Source: Acidimicrobiia bacterium
Lineage (GTDB): Bacteria; Actinomycetota; Acidimicrobiia; Acidimicrobiales; Bin134
DNA: 64,000 nucleotides
Assembly (NCBI GenBank): GCA_022825005.1
Contig: JAJDYU010000024.1
Location: 634 to 64,633 of the forward strand
Direction: 5' to 3'
Made by a program: the position numbers and the translations under genes. Below the pieces are notes generated by a model, which saw only the letters and a program-made list of their open reading frames with translations, had not been told where the DNA came from and made no database searches. Shown here piece by piece: positions 17,023 to 56,856 of the stretch; position 1 is the stretch's first letter, and every line of letters begins with the position of its first letter.

Positions 17023-17096
17023 GGGGCTGTAGCTCAGTTGGCTAGAGCGCCTCGTTCGCAACGAGGAGGCCGGCGGTTCGAGTCCGCTCAGCTCCA
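17023..17096 (+). tRNA. tRNA-Ala(CGC)
   Basis: GGGGCTG/CAGCTCC acceptor stem with G3:U70; anticodon arm CCTCG-TTCGCAA-CGAGG; GGTTCGAGTCC T arm; CCA not encoded. Confidence 0.97.
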
Positions 17097-31573: not shown

Positions 31574-32299
31574 GTGTTTGCAAGAAAGCCCAGTGGTTCG
31601 GGGCATTTGGGCGAGGGGCATCACCGCAATGTGACCCGGGGCGGGTATCGGGCGGCGGTGTTTGGGGTGAGCGATGGTCTGGTGTCCAACGTGGCGATCA
31701 TCTTGGGATTTGCCGGGGGCACGTCGGGACAAGGGCTCGTACAGCTGGTCGGGATCGCAGGCCTCATAGGGGGGGCAATTTCGATGGGCGCCGGAGAGTA
31801 CCTGTCCATGCAGGCCCAAAGGGAGCTGTTGGAACGGGAGCTGGATATGGAGCGCCGGGAGCACACCCACAATCCACAGCACGAAGTTGAGGAGCTGGCC
31901 GAAATATACGAATCCCGGGGCGTAGACCCCGATATGGCCCGGGAGATGGCCACCAACATCATGGATGACCCTGAGAAGGCTCTGGAGGTCCACGCCCGAG
32001 AAGAGATGGGTATCGATCCCAACGAGTTGGGCAACCCGCTCTTTGCGGCCATGTCCTCGTTCATATCCTTCGCTCTTGGCGCTCTTCTGCCGCTGTTGCC
32101 TTGGTTCTTCACCGGCGGTAACGGTGCAATCGTGGCATCGGTTATCCTCGGTGCAGTCGGAGCCGTGATGGTGGGCGGTGCACTGGCGCTGGCCACTAGC
32201 CGGTCGATCCTGCGGGGCGCGCTACGCCACCTGCTCTTCGTCGCTGTGGCCGCAGGGGTCACATTTGGAATCGGCTCCGCAGTGGGGGTGGGAGTATGA
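31574..32299 (+). CDS. VIT1/CCC1-family iron/manganese transporter
   Basis: RAAVFGVSDGLVSN, SMGAGEYLS, HAREEMGIDP. Confidence 0.93.
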   Translation: MFARKPSGSGHLGEGHHRNVTRGGYRAAVFGVSDGLVSNVAIILGFAGGTSGQGLVQLVGIAGLIGGAISMGAGEYLSMQAQRELLERELDMERREHTHNPQHEVEELAEIYESRGVDPDMAREMATNIMDDPEKALEVHAREEMGIDPNELGNPLFAAMSSFISFALGALLPLLPWFFTGGNGAIVASVILGAVGAVMVGGALALATSRSILRGALRHLLFVAVAAGVTFGIGSAVGVGV

Positions 32300-33165
32300 C
32301 TGATTGGGAATGGACTTTGGGCGGCCTCGAGAGCGATAAGCCTCCTATTTGGAGCGATGACAACATCCTGGATCCGTCCAGCGTGCTGCTCACAAACAAG
32401 GTAGCCATCGTTACCGGGGGCGCACGGGGCATCGGAGCGGCCACCGCGGTGGCGCTGGCTCGCTTCGGAGCCGATCTGGCCATTTGCGACCGGGAGGCCG
32501 ACGACATGGCCCGCACTGCCGCCGCGGTGGAGGCGCTGGGTCGCCGCTGTGTGACCGGGCTGTTCGACGTGCGCCATCCCGAGCCCCGAGACGCCTGGCT
32601 GGCCGAGGTGGGCGAGGCCTACGGCCGGGTGGACGTGCTGGTGAACAACGCCGGGGGCACGTTCAACTCTCCGTTTGCCGACATCAACCCCAAAGGCGAA
32701 GCCGCGCTCATCGCCGAGAACTTCACCCAGGTCACCGGCTTCATCCGGGGCTGTATTCCGCTGATGAGCGACGGCGGGTCGATCATCAACGTCACCTCCA
32801 TCGAGGCCCATCGGGCCGGTCCCGGCTTCTCCATCTACTCGGCGATGAAGGCGGCCCAGGCCAACCTGACCATGAGCCTGTCGCTGGAGTTGGCGCCGGC
32901 CGGCATCCGGGTCAACTGCATTGCCCCAGATGTGATCCCCACCGAGGGCGAGCGCATGCTCGGCGACGAGAGCACCGACGAGAGATCGCAGTTGGCCCCC
33001 CAGCCGTGGTTGGAGGGCGGCTCGGTTCACGACTGCGCCGCCTCGATCGTGTATCTGGCCGGGGACATGTCCCGATTTGTGACCGGCTCCACCATCCATG
33101 TGGACGGCGGCAACATTGGCGCTGCCGGCTGGAAGCGCCGCACTACTGGCCGCTATTCCACTTAG
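32296..33165 (+). CDS. SDR-family oxidoreductase
   Basis: TGGARGIG, NNAGG, YSAMK. Confidence 0.92.
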   Translation: MTDWEWTLGGLESDKPPIWSDDNILDPSSVLLTNKVAIVTGGARGIGAATAVALARFGADLAICDREADDMARTAAAVEALGRRCVTGLFDVRHPEPRDAWLAEVGEAYGRVDVLVNNAGGTFNSPFADINPKGEAALIAENFTQVTGFIRGCIPLMSDGGSIINVTSIEAHRAGPGFSIYSAMKAAQANLTMSLSLELAPAGIRVNCIAPDVIPTEGERMLGDESTDERSQLAPQPWLEGGSVHDCAASIVYLAGDMSRFVTGSTIHVDGGNIGAAGWKRRTTGRYST

Positions 33166-33213: not shown

Positions 33214-34281
33214 ATGGACATCGACATTGAGCGGGTAACCGAGATAGCTGGGGAGGTGGCCACCCACATGGCCGGGGCCACCACCATGGCCATGGTCCAC
33301 ATCGGCGACGAGCTGGGCCTGTATCAGGCCATGGCGGGGGCGGGGCCGATGACCGCGGACGCTCTGGCCGAAGCTACCGGCTGCAATCCCCGCCTGGTCA
33401 CCGAGTGGCTGCGCCAGCAGGCCGCCGTCGAGTTGGTGGAGATCGACGGTCAGGGCGACGATGATGTCACGTTCAAGCTCTCCGATGAGGCCGCCGCGGT
33501 GCTGGCCTGGGAGGTGAGTCCCGCATTCTTGGCCGGGGGCATCGGCATGTTCCGGGCCATGTTCGCCGACATGGACGACATCCTCAACGCCTTCCGGGGC
33601 GACGGCGGTTTGGCCTGGGGCGAGCACCATCCCAGCCTGTTCACCTCCACCGCCCGGTTCTTCCGGCCTCAGTACGAGATGTACCTGGCCAACGAGTGGA
33701 TCCCCGCCGCCGATGGCATCGACGAACTGCTCAAGGCCGGGGCTACCGCCGCCGACGTGGGCTGCGGCTGCGGCGACTCGGTGCAGATCCTGGCCTCGGC
33801 CTACCCCGAGTCGCACTTCACCGGGTTCGACTTCCACGGCCCCTCCATCGACCAGGCCAGAGAACTGGCCGCCAACGCCGGGCTGACCAACGCATCCTTC
33901 GAAGTGGCCGACTCCAAGGGCTACCAGGGCGCCTACGACGTGATCTTCTTCCTCGACTGTCTGCACGACATGGGCGACCCGGTGGGAATCGCCGCCCACG
34001 CCCGCAACCAGCTGGCCGAGGGCGGCTCGGTGCTCATGGTGGAGCCGTTCGCCCTCGACGGCCACGTCCGCAACCTGACCGAGAACCCCATGGCCGCCAC
34101 CTCATATGGGGCGTCGGCCGTGTTTTGAGTCCCGTGTTCTTTGGCCCAGCCGGTCGGTCTGGGAATGGGTGCACAAGCCGGCGAAGCCGCCATGCGAGAG
34201 GTCTTCGCCGCCGCCGGCTACTCCAGCTTCGAGCGAGTCACCGAGTCCAACGCCAACATCATCTACCAAGCCCGCCCGTAG
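33214..34281 (+). CDS. Winged-helix + class I SAM methyltransferase (Rv2258c-like), probable selenoprotein (UGA at codon 305; 355 aa)
   Basis: DVGCGCG, FLDCLHDMGDP; in-frame TGA 34126-34128 followed by 50 codons of family-typical C-terminus ending at TAG 34279-34281. Confidence 0.85.
34145..34163 (+). promoter_or_regulatory. Bacterial SECIS-like hairpin
   Basis: CCCAG-CC-[GGTC]-GG-(T bulge)-CTGGG; loop begins after a 23-nt spacer from the UGA. Confidence 0.7.
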
Positions 34282-41613: not shown

Positions 41614-42750
41614 ATGAAATCAATGGTCCCGGTGGAGGGCGGTCGCTTGTTGGCATCTTCCACCTTTCTCAAGCTGTTGGCGATCTTGGCAGCGATTGTG
41701 CTGCTGGCTGGTGCCTGCGGGGATGACAGCTCCTCCGACGGTGGTGTTACGGACGCCGGTGACACTACGGCCGATGGCGCTGCCGCCGACGACGGCGCTG
41801 CCGCTGCCGCCGAAGAGGTCGATGTCACCCAGGGTGGCGAAGCCGGCGGCGCCGGGGAGCGCGAGATCTGCGCTATCGGTGGTGCTGACGCGTTCTTCAG
41901 CGTTGTGAAAAACGGCGCCGACGCCGCCGGTGCAGCCGTCGAGGCTGCTGGCAGCAACTTCACCTGGATCGCGTTGCCGAACTACGACAACATCGGTCCC
42001 GACATGGTCAAGCTGATCGAGCAGGCGGTCGCCCAGAACTGCACGGCGCTCGCGGTACCCGTCTGGGACGGTGCTGCTCAGGCCCCGGCTCTTGCGGCTG
42101 CGATCAACGCCGGTGTCAACGTGTTCATGTACAACTCCGGTCTGCCTCTGCTCGAGGATGGTACAATCGACGCTCTCGGGTACTTCGGCACTGACGAGTA
42201 CAAGGCCGGCCTTGCGGCCGGTCAGGCCCACGCCGACGGCGGTGGCACGAGCCTGCTGTGCGTCAACACCCAGCCCGGCGCGGTGAACTGGCAGCAGCGC
42301 TGCGGCGGTGCCATCGAGGCCGCCAGTGCTGCCGGTCTCGAGACCGAGGAGCTCATCCTGCCGGCCGAGAACTTTGGTGACGCGGCTGCGATCTCCGCCG
42401 CCGTCCAGGCCAAGCTAGCGGAGAACTCGGGCATCGACGCCATCATGACCGGCTCGGCGGCCGACGCCGATGCTGTCGCCGAGGCCCTGTCGTCGATGGG
42501 CGCCGACCACGTCGCGCAAGGCTCGTGGGACGTCTCCGCCAACATCCTCGACCGGATCGCGAGTGGTGAGGCGCTGTTCGCCATCGACCAGCAGGGTTGG
42601 CTCCAGGGCTGGTACGCTGTGTCGCACGCCTGGTACTACGACCAGTACGCCATCCTGCCGGCGACTAACGTCATCCTGACCGGTCCTGCGCTGATCACCG
42701 CCGACAATGTCGCGACGGTCCAGCTGGCCGTGGACTCGGGTCAGCGCTGA
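41614..42750 (+). CDS. Sugar (inositol-type) ABC transporter substrate-binding lipoprotein
   Basis: LAGAC lipobox, DAFFSVVKNGA, FAIDQQGWLQG, ILTGPALIT; start may be later. Confidence 0.92.
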   Translation: MKSMVPVEGGRLLASSTFLKLLAILAAIVLLAGACGDDSSSDGGVTDAGDTTADGAAADDGAAAAAEEVDVTQGGEAGGAGEREICAIGGADAFFSVVKNGADAAGAAVEAAGSNFTWIALPNYDNIGPDMVKLIEQAVAQNCTALAVPVWDGAAQAPALAAAINAGVNVFMYNSGLPLLEDGTIDALGYFGTDEYKAGLAAGQAHADGGGTSLLCVNTQPGAVNWQQRCGGAIEAASAAGLETEELILPAENFGDAAAISAAVQAKLAENSGIDAIMTGSAADADAVAEALSSMGADHVAQGSWDVSANILDRIASGEALFAIDQQGWLQGWYAVSHAWYYDQYAILPATNVILTGPALITADNVATVQLAVDSGQR

Positions 42751-48863: not shown

Positions 48864-48939
48864 GCCCCGTTCGTCTAGAGGCCTAGGACGCCAGATTCTC
48901 AATCTGGTAACACGGGTTCGAATCCCGTACGGGGTGCCA
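48864..48939 (+). tRNA. tRNA-Glu(CTC)
   Basis: GCCCCGT/ACGGGGT acceptor stem, CCAGA-TTCTCAA-TCTGG anticodon arm, GGTTCGAATCC, encoded CCA; 76 nt. Confidence 0.97.
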
Positions 48940-56316: not shown

Positions 56317-56856
56317 TCATGCCACCAGGGCGTCCACGATGTCGTCGAGACGAGATGCGATGTCGGCCCTGATGTCTTCCTCCGCCCACTCGTCGTAGCC
56401 CGACGGCAACACGATCAGCGGCTGGTTGTCCACCCGCAGGCCCCGGGCAGTGGCCTCGGCCAGGCCCCGGAACTGCTCGGTCACCAGGCCCACCGCCGGA
56501 GTTCCCATGGCTTCCAGCGTGCTGCTGGCGTGGATACACCACGCCGTACACGAGCCTCAATTGCCCAAGCCGCTGATCACCGCGTCGACCTCCTTGTGGA
56601 AGGCCTCCATCTCCTGTTGATACTGCTCGGGATCGGCGCCGTGCATGGGGCCGCTGGCCCGAACCACCACCCCGGCCGCCCCGGCCCGATCTACCAACTG
56701 GCGGGACAGCTCGTCGGCCATGATGGCCATAGACCGCCACATGTCGTTGTCGATGATGCCCACCGTCGCGCCGGCCAGCGAGTCTTTGCGGATGGCCAGC
56801 GGCTGTGCGGGCTCGTTCACCTCGCCGGTGGGCAACAAGATGGTGGTGGTTTCCAT
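56317..56856 (-). CDS. UGSC-family selenoprotein (UGA at codon 100; 179 aa)
   Basis: DAVISGLGN-TGA(56557-56559)-GSCTAWC continues in frame to 56317. Confidence 0.9.
56527..56545 (-). promoter_or_regulatory. Bacterial SECIS-like hairpin
   Basis: GGCGUGG-[UGUAU]-CCACGCC, 7-bp perfect stem after an 11-nt spacer from the UGA. Confidence 0.7.

What the first reader, a model, noticed from the sequence alone, without database searches (positions are those of the whole stretch)
33214..34281. Candidate new selenoprotein family: wHTH/SAM methyltransferase with a U-x-x-C motif and SECIS
Seen: the ORF track stops at TGA 34126-34128, but the frame runs 50 more codons with normal codon usage: SYGASAVF-U-VPCSLAQPVGLGMGAQAGEAAMREVFAAAGYSSFERV...IYQARP. 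A hairpin CCCAGCC-GGUC-GG(U)CUGGG follows, with a GGUC loop after a 23-nt spacer and a bulged U. Knowledge: these features resemble the E. coli fdhF SECIS. As I recall, Rv2258c-like methyltransferases carry Cys at this position (YxxSxxxC.P.S...GAQAGE). Inference: Sec replaces an active-site Cys to give U-V-P-C, and there is an extra Cys in SAM motif I (GCGCG). This suggests metalloid, thiol or metal methylation by analogy with ArsM, on a different scaffold. I know of no description of this family as a selenoprotein but cannot verify novelty here.
Basis: partly seen in the sequence, partly recalled or inferred. Interest (0 to 1): 0.88.

Follow-up and report, generated by a model that had tools for sequence, protein, structure and literature searches.

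The report
New selenocysteine methyltransferase in sponge symbionts
A methyltransferase gene of a sponge-associated bacterium reads an internal TGA "stop" as selenocysteine at a cysteine that never varies in this large enzyme family, which adds an unlisted selenoprotein family and marks the residue that probably matters most for the enzyme's unknown chemistry.

Summary
The ORF 33214-34128 stops at TGA 34126-34128, and the frame stays open for 50 more codons to TAG 34279-34281. The 355-aa product is an Rv2258c-like winged-helix plus class I SAM methyltransferase.

The TGA column is Cys in all 76 TGA-free homologous loci from many phyla, and in Rv2258c. Within the window's own genus (sponge-associated Acidimicrobiia), 18 of 34 species orthologs carry TGA there and 16 carry TGC/TGT. 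The 50 codons after the TGA are under strong purifying selection (pN/pS 0.066).

The genome has selA, selB, a Sec-type selD and tRNA-Sec(UCA). TGA is its commonest ordinary stop. A hairpin 23-24 nt downstream meets the published bacterial SECIS criteria in all 18 TGA forms. On its own it is weak evidence, because about 16% of random TGAs in this genome pass the same criteria.

I conclude that this is a genuine selenoprotein. It is absent from a 2026 catalogue of 119 prokaryotic selenoprotein families, and public records annotate it as a truncated protein. Sec lies on the helix between beta5 and alphaE. Its chemical role and the substrate remain inferred. The ArsM-like idea is untested, and ArsM membership fails.

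The parts
33214..34281 (+). Complete selenoprotein coding sequence, 355 aa plus TAG stop. It is an Rv2258c-like wHTH plus class I SAM-dependent methyltransferase.
   Evidence: Translation with TGA=U. Pfam HTH_65 38.5 bits and Methyltransf_31 59.9 bits. PDB TnmJ E 6e-42 and Rv2258c E 4.5e-40. AF2 model pLDDT 91.5. Foldseek TM 0.84-0.88 to TnmJ and Rv2258c.
34126..34128 (+). In-frame TGA read as selenocysteine (residue 305).
   Evidence: The column is Cys in 76 of 80 family loci and TGA in 4, all genus-level. TGA in 18 and TGC/TGT in 16 of the 34 genus orthologs. Rv2258c has Cys here.
34145..34163 (+). bSECIS-like hairpin: CCCAGCC / loop GGUC / GG(U)CUGGG. The loop starts 23 nt after the UGA.
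   Evidence: A homologous hairpin is present in 18 of 18 Sec forms at -9.6 to -15.4 kcal/mol. One pair covaries: G-C 9, A-U 6, G-U 2. It meets the four criteria quoted in PMC13188914 section 5.
34129..34278 (+). The 50 codons downstream of the UGA (end of helix 294-310, alphaE, beta6, beta7), which are translated.
   Evidence: pN/pS 0.066 (pS 0.356) among 17 Sec forms, against 0.136 upstream. No stop or frameshift in any of the 17. Secondary structure.
33286..33507 (+). N-terminal winged helix-turn-helix (dimerisation-type) domain, residues 25-98.
   Evidence: Pfam PF21320 HTH_65, residues 25-98.
33733..34077 (+). Class I SAM-binding methyltransferase core, residues 174-288. Motif I is D-V-G-C-G-C-G (181-187) and the post-beta4 loop is F-L-D-C-L-H-D-M-G-D-P (246-256).
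   Evidence: Pfam Methyltransf_31, residues 174-288. Invariant columns. Strands in the model.
34093..34143 (+). Helix 294-310 between beta5 and alphaE. It carries the invariant Y298, S301, U/C305, P307 and S309, and the genus-specific C308.
   Evidence: AF2 secondary structure. Conservation.
32296..33165 (+). Upstream short-chain dehydrogenase/reductase gene, 48 nt before the methyltransferase start. Probable co-transcribed partner.
   Evidence: Pfam adh_short_C2 E 1e-53. Same-strand adjacency with a 42-136 nt gap in 33 of the 34 genus loci examined.

Best explanation
The gene at 33214-34281 encodes a full-length 355-aa selenoprotein. It is an Rv2258c-like winged-helix plus class I SAM-dependent methyltransferase. 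UGA 34126-34128 is decoded as selenocysteine by the genome's own SelA/SelB/SelD/tRNA-Sec system. A small hairpin whose apical loop begins 23 nt downstream acts as the SelB-binding SECIS.

Sec305 replaces a cysteine that is invariant across this large, widespread and functionally uncharacterised methyltransferase family. Within one genus of sponge-associated Acidimicrobiia the position has switched between Cys and Sec several times.

Shown:
- recoding context
- Sec/Cys pairing
- machinery
- translation of the downstream part
- fold

Inferred:
- Residue 305 lies on helix 294-310 in the beta5-alphaE insertion, the element that walls the methyl-acceptor pocket in this fold.
- It acts there as the reactive nucleophile or ligand of the enzyme. 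It either holds or activates the substrate next to the SAM methyl group, or forms a transient covalent or redox intermediate.
- The genus-specific C308 (U-x-x-C) can resolve that intermediate as a selenenylsulfide.
- Sec gives higher nucleophilicity and resistance to irreversible oxidation.

The substrate is unknown. A small molecule is most likely, possibly made by the conserved upstream SDR.
For: - Reading frame and motif.
- Family and fold.
- Cys at the UGA column in 76 of 76 TGA-free family loci from many phyla, and in Rv2258c.
- TGA in 18 and Cys in 16 of 34 genus orthologs.
- pN/pS downstream of the UGA is 0.066 with pS 0.356 (17 Sec forms).
- selA 405 bits, selB 277 bits, selD 351 bits with its own TGA, tRNA-Sec 67.5 bits with anticodon TCA.
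- selA is over its cut-off in 39 of 40 genus genomes.
- TGA ends 368 of 652 long GC3-rich frames, so it is an ordinary stop in this genome.
- The hairpin meets the bSECIS criteria in 18 of 18 Sec forms. Among the Cys forms, only 5 of 16 keep the homologous hairpin at or below -7.5 kcal/mol.
- One covarying pair in the hairpin.
- Two UGSC-family candidates in the same genome have comparable hairpins. A crotonase TGA unique to this genome has none and serves as a negative control.
- DNA contigs of two other runs, and one contig from an RNA library, span the TGA.
- Position of residue 305 in the helix between beta5 and alphaE.
- C186 in 34 of 34 and C308 in 33 of 34 genus orthologs (aligned set).
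Against: - No direct evidence of selenium in the protein.
- The hairpin alone is not statistically exceptional (z +0.46; 16% of random TGAs pass). It is partly dictated by the A-Q-P-V-G-L-G codons, so it also exists in some Cys forms.
- The catalytic role of residue 305 is inferred from invariance and topology only. No coordinates or ligand-bound model were available to measure its distance to SAM.
- TnmJ, the closest solved relative, has Ser at this column and works as a cofactor-less oxygenase (passages of bioRxiv 10.1101/2024.05.03.592356). The Cys is therefore not required for the fold or for all chemistries on it.
- One Sec form (G025) has Ser at +3, so a U305-C308 selenenylsulfide cannot be essential.
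- The genus orthologs are related to one another. The Sec-versus-Cys hairpin comparison (Mann-Whitney p 0.004) overstates independence.
Confidence: 0.87

Rival explanations
1. The protein is a real selenoprotein, but Sec305 is not catalytic. It would be a redox-sensing or regulatory residue, or a structural one (for example reversible oxidation switching the enzyme off), with methyl transfer done by other residues such as H251/D252.
For: The H-D pair in the post-beta4 loop and other polar residues are also invariant. The genus acquired a CxxC/UxxC arrangement typical of redox switches. TnmJ functions with Ser at this column.
Against: The Cys is invariant in 73 of 73 non-genus family loci across many phyla, which is unusual for a purely regulatory residue. 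In most of the family the +3 residue is N or A, so no disulfide partner sits at +3.
Confidence: 0.22
2. The enzyme is an ArsM-like metalloid, chalcogen or thiol methyltransferase. A cluster of soft ligands (C249, U305, plus the genus-specific C186 and C308) would bind As(III), Se, Te or a thiol next to SAM.
For: hhalign matches the SAM core to ArsM with probability 96.4, and C249 falls one residue from the ArsM post-beta4 Cys (S-N-C). ArsM's third Cys (W-x-G-C-x-x-G) also lies between beta5 and alphaE. The genus adds two more Cys. Canonical ArsM (NF008823) was not found at E <= 1e-30 in any of 37 genus genomes searched. Sec-containing ArsM forms exist (PMC13188914 Table 1). S-methyltransferases DtpM and DsyB share the fold.
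Against: No NF008823 hit for the protein. The hhalign alignment stops at residue 275, before residue 305. The N-terminal ArsM cysteines have no counterpart. The wider family has only C249 and C305 as invariant non-motif-I cysteines. No ars genes are adjacent.
Confidence: 0.15
3. The TGA is a true stop. The gene would be a pseudogene, or would encode a 304-aa truncated protein, or the TGA would be an assembly error.
For: Public records annotate the TGA forms as 302-311 aa proteins. The hairpin alone is not significant.
Against: TGA is at the identical column in 18 species genomes. pN/pS is 0.066 over the 50 downstream codons, with no stops or frameshifts. Truncation would remove alphaE, beta6 and beta7 of the Rossmann-like core. 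Contigs from other runs span the TGA. By contrast, a TGA that looks like an error (crotonase, 1 of 29 orthologs, no hairpin) behaves differently.
Confidence: 0.02
4. UGA is read through as another amino acid (Trp, Cys or Gly by near-cognate or reassigned decoding) rather than as Sec.
For: UGA reassignment exists in some Actinomycetota. I saw only the search listing and abstract of PMC13462651.
Against: TGA terminates 368 of 652 long coding frames here. The complete Sec machinery is present. The column is Cys in every homolog, the classic Sec/Cys pair. The SECIS-like hairpin is maintained in all TGA forms.
Confidence: 0.03

Closest known systems
Rv2258c (PDB 5F8C/5F8E/5F8F) and the Pfam HTH_65 'Rv2258c-like winged HTH' methyltransferases
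   Same: Same two-domain architecture and fold (E 4.5e-40; TM 0.85-0.88). Cys at the column that is Sec here.
   Different: Rv2258c uses Cys, not Sec. It has Ala where the family core has C249 (alignment). About 30% identity. Its substrate is also unknown (recalled, not read here).
TnmJ (PDB 8G5S), methyltransferase-fold enzyme of tiancimycin biosynthesis
   Same: Best sequence and fold match (E 5.8e-42; TM 0.84-0.85).
   Different: Ser at the Sec/Cys column. Described as a cofactor-less oxygenase doing deformylation and epoxidation (passages of bioRxiv 10.1101/2024.05.03.592356). Part of a biosynthetic cluster, whereas this gene is not.
Selenoprotein arsenite methyltransferase (ArsM, NF008823, 'UxxG') and its fusion forms NF041536 / NF041537
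   Same: A SAM-dependent class I methyltransferase in which Sec replaces a Cys. ArsM has a Cys just after beta4 and another between beta5 and alphaE. All are listed as selenoproteins in PMC13188914 Table 1.
   Different: A different scaffold: no wHTH domain, and extra N-terminal Cys pairs in ArsM. This protein has no NF008823 hit, and NF041536 scores 14.3 bits against a cut-off of 575. The motif is U-x-x-C rather than U-x-x-G, and the substrate is unknown.
Other methyltransferase-domain selenoproteins: MduS (PF13649, CxxU, 2 Sec) and methyltransferase/UXPK-star (NF047649, 2 Sec)
   Same: Class I methyltransferase domain with Sec (PMC13188914 Table 1).
   Different: Those have two Sec residues and CxxU or UxxG motifs. 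NF047649 scores 19.7 bits against a cut-off of 460 here, and only over the SAM motif.
Family-2 (COMT-like) small-molecule O-, N- and S-methyltransferases (MfnG, MmcR, RedM, ASMT, DnrK, DtpM, DsyB)
   Same: Same overall architecture, an N-terminal helical/wHTH dimerisation domain plus a class I core (TM 0.58-0.73). The post-beta4 L-H-D motif resembles theirs (their motif is recalled).
   Different: PF00891 scores 20.1 bits, below its cut-off of 22.3. None is known as a selenoprotein. Their catalytic His on the post-beta5 helix could not be aligned to residue 305 with these tools.

Membership tests
Bacterial selenoprotein gene (Sec/Cys pair with bSECIS) | In-frame UGA aligned with Cys in homologs | tested here: met
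   76 Cys and 4 TGA in 80 family loci. 16 Cys and 18 TGA in 34 genus orthologs. Cys in Rv2258c.
Bacterial selenoprotein gene (Sec/Cys pair with bSECIS) | UGA-containing orthologs in other organisms, with the downstream frame conserved as protein | tested here: met
   17 other species genomes carry the TGA. pN/pS is 0.066 over codons 306-355.
Bacterial selenoprotein gene (Sec/Cys pair with bSECIS) | Stem-loop meeting the bSECIS model: 3-9 nt loop, 4-16 bp stem, G in the first two loop positions, 16-37 nt spacing, MFE <= -7.5 (criteria from PMC13188914 section 5) | tested here: met
   18 of 18 Sec forms: loop 3-5 nt starting with G, 7-8 bp, spacing 23-24 nt, -9.6 to -15.4 kcal/mol. Specificity is low, since 16% of random TGAs pass.
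Bacterial selenoprotein gene (Sec/Cys pair with bSECIS) | Sec machinery (selA, selB, selD, tRNA-Sec) in the same genome | tested here: met
   All four are over their curated cut-offs. The tRNA-Sec anticodon is TCA.
Bacterial selenoprotein gene (Sec/Cys pair with bSECIS) | Selenium actually incorporated at the UGA | not testable with these tools
   Needs 75Se labelling or mass spectrometry.
Rv2258c-like wHTH / class I SAM methyltransferase | HTH_65 N-terminal domain and a class I methyltransferase domain, both over Pfam cut-offs | tested here: met
   PF21320 scores 38.5 bits (cut-off 24.1). PF13847 scores 59.9 bits (cut-off 27).
Rv2258c-like wHTH / class I SAM methyltransferase | Same fold as the solved members | tested here: met
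   Model pLDDT 91.5. TM 0.84-0.88 to 8G5S and 5F8C/E/F.
Rv2258c-like wHTH / class I SAM methyltransferase | SAM binding and methyl transfer | not testable with these tools
   Motif I D-x-G-C-G-x-G and D206 are conserved. No assay was possible.
Arsenite methyltransferase ArsM (NF008823) | Match to the family model over its cut-off (263 bits) | tested here: not met
   NF008823 is not among the hits at E <= 0.01. hhalign covers only the SAM core, residues 141-275.
Arsenite methyltransferase ArsM (NF008823) | Conserved As(III)-binding cysteines: N-terminal C-C and G-C-G-N-P, post-beta4 S-N-C, and W-x-G-C-x-x-G (seen in the ArsM sequences; their roles are recalled) | tested here: not met
   No N-terminal counterparts. 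C249 is offset by one from the S-N-C Cys. Residue 305 could not be aligned.
Known methyltransferase selenoproteins (NF047649, NF041536) | Match over the curated cut-off | tested here: not met
   19.7 bits against 460, and 14.3 bits against 575.
MduS methyltransferase-domain selenoprotein | Two Sec residues and a CxxU motif (PMC13188914 Table 1) | tested here: not met
   One Sec and a U-x-x-C motif here. No direct sequence comparison was possible.
Family-2 O-methyltransferase (PF00891) | Pfam model over its cut-off | tested here: not met
   20.1 bits against a cut-off of 22.3, and only residues 178-279. The fold is similar (TM 0.58-0.73).

The most novel reading that the evidence does not exclude
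In this sponge-symbiont genus, the ubiquitous but uncharacterised Rv2258c-like methyltransferase has been rebuilt into a selenium-assisted metalloid or chalcogen (As, Se, Te) or thiol methyltransferase. It would be an ArsM analogue on a COMT-like scaffold.

Its pocket would carry a soft-ligand cluster of C186, C249, U305 and C308. The genus lacks canonical ArsM. The repeated Cys/Sec switching among species would track selenium or metalloid availability in different sponge hosts.
Probability: 0.12. Interest if true: 0.8.

Novelty: new member of a known kind. Interest (0 to 1): 0.6.

Why it matters
1. It adds a selenoprotein family that a 2026 catalogue of 119 prokaryotic families does not list. 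Public annotation truncates it at the UGA, including two closed genomes of the genus.

2. Sec almost always marks the chemically decisive residue. It therefore points to Cys305 as the key residue of a very large methyltransferase family with no known substrate. One search scored 7976 proteins at E <= 1e-20. The family is found from Pseudomonas to Acidobacteriota and includes M. tuberculosis Rv2258c.

3. The genus offers a natural experiment. There are 18 Sec and 16 Cys orthologs at 82-97% identity, at least three Sec clades, and all but one genome keep the Sec machinery. This makes it useful for studying how Cys-to-Sec conversion and SECIS birth happen. Here the amino-acid sequence A-Q-P-V-G-L-G already encoded most of the hairpin.

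Tried and rejected
- **Single-sequence AlphaFold model**. pLDDT was 42, so it was unusable. I replaced it with the alignment-based model.
- **Rfam scan of the window**. Only two tRNAs were found, and no RNA family matched at the hairpin.
- **Conserved gene neighbourhood across the family**. No neighbour is shared across phyla. Recurring neighbours are confined to Pseudomonas (Sir2 downstream; a divergent MbnB/TglH-like DUF692 plus DUF2063; LysR) or to the genus (SDR). This gives no functional lead.
- **ArsM homology**. The profile alignment covers only the SAM core, so membership is rejected. The analogy is kept as a low-probability rival.
- **Equating residue 305 with the catalytic His of COMT-like O-methyltransferases.** The beta5-alphaE insertion differs in length and no tool gives residue-level structural alignment, so this is left open.
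- **Crotonase with an in-frame TGA** (G000:C47). The TGA is present in only 1 of 29 genus orthologs and has no qualifying hairpin. I rejected it as a selenoprotein and used it as a negative control.
- **Read laying**. All four runs are stored as contigs, so depth, transcript ends and absence cannot be read. 126 further differences were not shown, so I cannot exclude that some contigs in X2 or X3 carry the Cys allele. The RNA-library contigs do not prove transcription, because DNA carry-over is possible.
- **Literature searches** for a prior description found none. Supplements are closed, and the Haft & Tolstoy 2025 paper (PMC12013261) is not held. A mention there or in supplementary tables cannot be excluded.
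Full report
**Observation.** On the + strand an ORF starts at ATG 33214 and meets TGA at 34126-34128. The same frame stays open for 50 more codons to TAG 34279-34281. Reading TGA as U gives 355 aa with ...SYGASAVF-U-VPCSLAQPVGLGMGAQAGE.... A hairpin follows: CCCAGCC (34145-34151), loop GGUC (34152-34155), then GG-U-CUGGG (34156-34163). Its loop begins 23 nt after the UGA.

**What the protein is.**
- Pfam finds the Rv2258c-like winged HTH (PF21320, residues 25-98, 38.5 bits) and class I methyltransferase domains (PF13847, residues 174-288, 59.9 bits).
- NCBIfam has no specific model. The selenoprotein methyltransferase models NF047649 and NF041536 score far below their cut-offs.
- The best solved relatives are TnmJ (8G5S, E 5.8e-42) and Rv2258c (5F8C, E 4.5e-40).
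- An AlphaFold model built on a 58-sequence alignment is confident (pLDDT 91.5, pTM 0.86). It superposes on TnmJ and Rv2258c with TM 0.84-0.88, and next on COMT-like small-molecule methyltransferases, including the S-methyltransferases DtpM and DsyB.
- Residue 305 lies in helix 294-310, in the insertion between beta5 (267-278) and alphaE (320-333).

**The Sec/Cys column.**
- In the HMMER alignment Rv2258c has Cys opposite residue 305, and TnmJ has Ser.
- I examined 80 loci from many phyla, found with the protein in one-genome-per-species contigs. They include Pseudomonas, Rhizobium, Acidobacteriota, Planctomycetota and Actinomycetota.
- Of these, 76 have Cys at the column and 4 have TGA. The 4 are the 82-93% identical genus-level loci.
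- Among the 73 non-genus loci, C305 is invariant within the motif C-[TV]-P-x-S-L-S-Q-E-V-G-L-G-L-G-A-Q-A-G-E.
- C184 (motif I) and C249 (post-beta4 loop F-D-C-L-H-D-M-G-D-P) are also invariant.
- The +3 position is N (33), A (30), S, C or T, so U-x-x-C is not a family motif.
- All 34 genus orthologs carry C186, where the family mostly has His. 33 of 34 carry C308.

**Distribution.** Titles of near-identical public records name the organism group as sponge-associated Acidimicrobiia ('Candidatus Poriferisocius', 'marine group Sva0996'). The runs that hold the stretch are mostly sponge metagenomes.
- The genus has 40 species genomes, and 34 hold an ortholog. 18 carry one TGA at this column and 16 carry TGC or TGT.
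- In a class-wide sample of 401 genomes, 135 had a homolog at E <= 1e-40. In the listed rows only the two genus members in the sample (G000, G025) had a TGA; 11 further matches were not listed.
- In a phylum-wide sample of 401 genomes, 53 had a homolog at E <= 1e-50, and only G000 had a TGA. One row had a TAG.
- Sec forms were therefore not found outside the genus in what I searched. Some unpublished genomes are in these samples (see the steps told).
- I built a gene tree of the 34 orthologs plus 4 outgroups. The Sec codon and the next 24 codons were removed, a partial second copy in G009 was dropped, and four more distant outgroups were dropped. The tree places the Sec forms in three clades. 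Fitch parsimony needs 4 changes with a Cys root. Several internal supports are low.

**Is the UGA translated?**
- Among the 17 Sec-form genes of exactly 1065 nt, the 50 codons after the UGA have pS 0.356 and pN 0.023, giving pN/pS 0.066. Upstream the value is 0.136.
- The 13 Cys forms of equal length give 0.122 downstream and 0.131 upstream.
- None of the 17 Sec forms has a stop or frameshift downstream.
- Truncation at residue 304 would delete alphaE, beta6 and beta7 of the core.
- The genome has selA (405 bits), selB (277 bits), selD (351 bits, itself with an in-frame TGA) and tRNA-Sec (67.5 bits, anticodon TCA).
- selA is over its cut-off in 39 of 40 genus genomes. The exception is a 93%-complete Cys-form genome. 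Cys forms are therefore not explained by loss of the machinery.
- TGA ends 368 of 652 long GC3-rich frames, so it is not reassigned genome-wide.

**SECIS.** The 2026 review gives these bSECIS criteria: a 3-9 nt loop, a 4-16 bp stem, G in the first two loop positions, 16-37 nt spacing and MFE <= -7.5 (PMC13188914 section 5).
- All 18 Sec forms meet them at the same place. There are three variants, which follow the three clades:
  - CCCAGCC-GGUC-GG(N)CUGGG
  - CCCAACCC-GUC-GGGUUGGG
  - CCCAGCCC-GUG-GGGCUGGG
- Their energies run from -9.6 to -15.4 kcal/mol.
- One pair changes G-C (9), A-U (6), G-U (2) without ever breaking. 95% of cells pair, against 69% or less when the partner is slid.
- The evidence is modest for three reasons:
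  - The fold is no better than shuffles.
  - 16% of 2995 random TGAs in this genome pass the criteria.
  - The stem is largely imposed by the CCN and GGN codons of Q-P-V-G-L-G. 5 of 16 Cys forms keep the homologous hairpin at or below -7.5, four sit at -7.1, and seven lack it.
- The site thus looks pre-adapted for SECIS birth.
- The 'bulged U' is U, C or absent, so it is not a conserved feature.
- In the same genome, two UGSC-family selenoprotein candidates have hairpins of -12.6 kcal/mol at 18-19 nt. selD has a GGUCA-loop hairpin at 32 nt.
- A crotonase TGA found by my scan has no qualifying hairpin and is unique to this genome (1 of 29 orthologs). A spurious TGA therefore looks different.

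**Reads.** DNA contigs from two other runs, one from another study, cover the TGA. A 170-nt contig from a sponge metatranscriptome library covers 34108-34273. The only kind of change tallied for that run is C>A. All runs are contigs, not raw reads, so this shows presence only.

**Mechanism.**
- Shown: a full-length protein with Sec at an invariant Cys on the beta5-alphaE helix.
- Inferred from invariance, from the general rule that Sec replaces reactive cysteines, and from the topology of this fold: residue 305 lines the methyl-acceptor pocket and is the reactive nucleophile or ligand. The genus-specific C308 may resolve a selenenylsulfide, though one Sec form lacks it.
- The upstream SDR is adjacent on the same strand in 33 of the 34 genus loci examined. 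It may supply or process the substrate.
- The ArsM analogy has some topological support. C249 is one residue from ArsM's post-beta4 Cys. ArsM's third Cys is also between beta5 and alphaE. No canonical ArsM was found in 37 genus genomes. But membership fails and nothing links the gene to arsenic.

**Novelty.** Table 1 of the 2026 review lists 119 families. I read section 7 in three parts.
- Its methyltransferase entries are ArsM, MGMT, MduS, methyltransferase/UXPK-star and two ArsM fusions.
- None is an Rv2258c-like or HTH_65 protein with a single U-x-x-C.
- Public protein collections hold the Sec forms as 302-311 aa proteins, two of them named 'methyltransferase domain-containing protein'.
- Full-text searches found no prior description.
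- Supplements and PMC12013261 could not be read.
- I therefore file it as a new member (a new family) of the known kind 'bacterial selenoprotein with Cys homologs'.

Noticed in passing
window 56320-56856 (-), in-frame TGA at 56557-56559: A 179-aa gene with the motif G-N-U-G-S-C matches NCBIfam NF041046 'UGSC family (seleno)protein' (E 1.2e-23, 83.7 bits, below the cut-off of 125). It has a -12.6 kcal/mol hairpin 18 nt after the TGA. This is probably a second selenoprotein gene in the window.
   Followed up: partly
G000:C89:5905-6453 (-) (locus L144:304-849): A paralogous UGSC-family candidate (A-K-U-G-S-C, E 3e-26) with a hairpin at 19 nt. Together with the Sec-type selD (G000:C53, TGA at 42317), this shows that the genome uses Sec in several proteins.
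   Followed up: partly
G000:C47:21335-22114 (-) (locus L145): A crotonase/enoyl-CoA hydratase (EchA19-like, E 2.8e-69) has an in-frame TGA at residue 120. The TGA is unique to this genome (1 of 29 genus orthologs) and has no bSECIS-like hairpin. It is probably a recent nonsense mutation or an assembly error.
   Followed up: yes
genus genomes G000-G036: Canonical arsenite methyltransferase (NF008823) was not found at E <= 1e-30 in any of the 37 genus genomes searched. 8 of 24 other genomes of the order had a match at that E-value, 4 of them over the family's cut-off.
   Followed up: no
L080-L097 (Pseudomonas homolog loci): In Pseudomonas the Cys-form homolog is followed by a Sir2-family gene. 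A divergent MbnB/TglH/ChrH-like (DUF692) plus DUF2063 pair, and a LysR regulator, lie nearby. This arrangement is confined to Pseudomonas.
   Followed up: partly
G009:C125:5522-6586 and G009:C42:23989-24609: One genus genome (6% contamination) holds two Sec-form copies, 95% and 98% identical to the query. The second is cut by a contig end. This is probably strain heterogeneity in the bin.
   Followed up: no
window 17023-17096 (+) and 48864-48936 (+): Two ordinary tRNA genes, the only Rfam gathering-score matches in the window.
   Followed up: no
window 34126-34131 and orthologs: The residue after the Sec/Cys column tracks the codon. All 16 Cys forms have Thr (TGC/TGT ACC). 17 of 18 Sec forms have Val or Ile (TGA GTN/ATN). 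This may be a context effect on UGA decoding, or a structural adjustment to Sec. It is unexplained.
   Followed up: no
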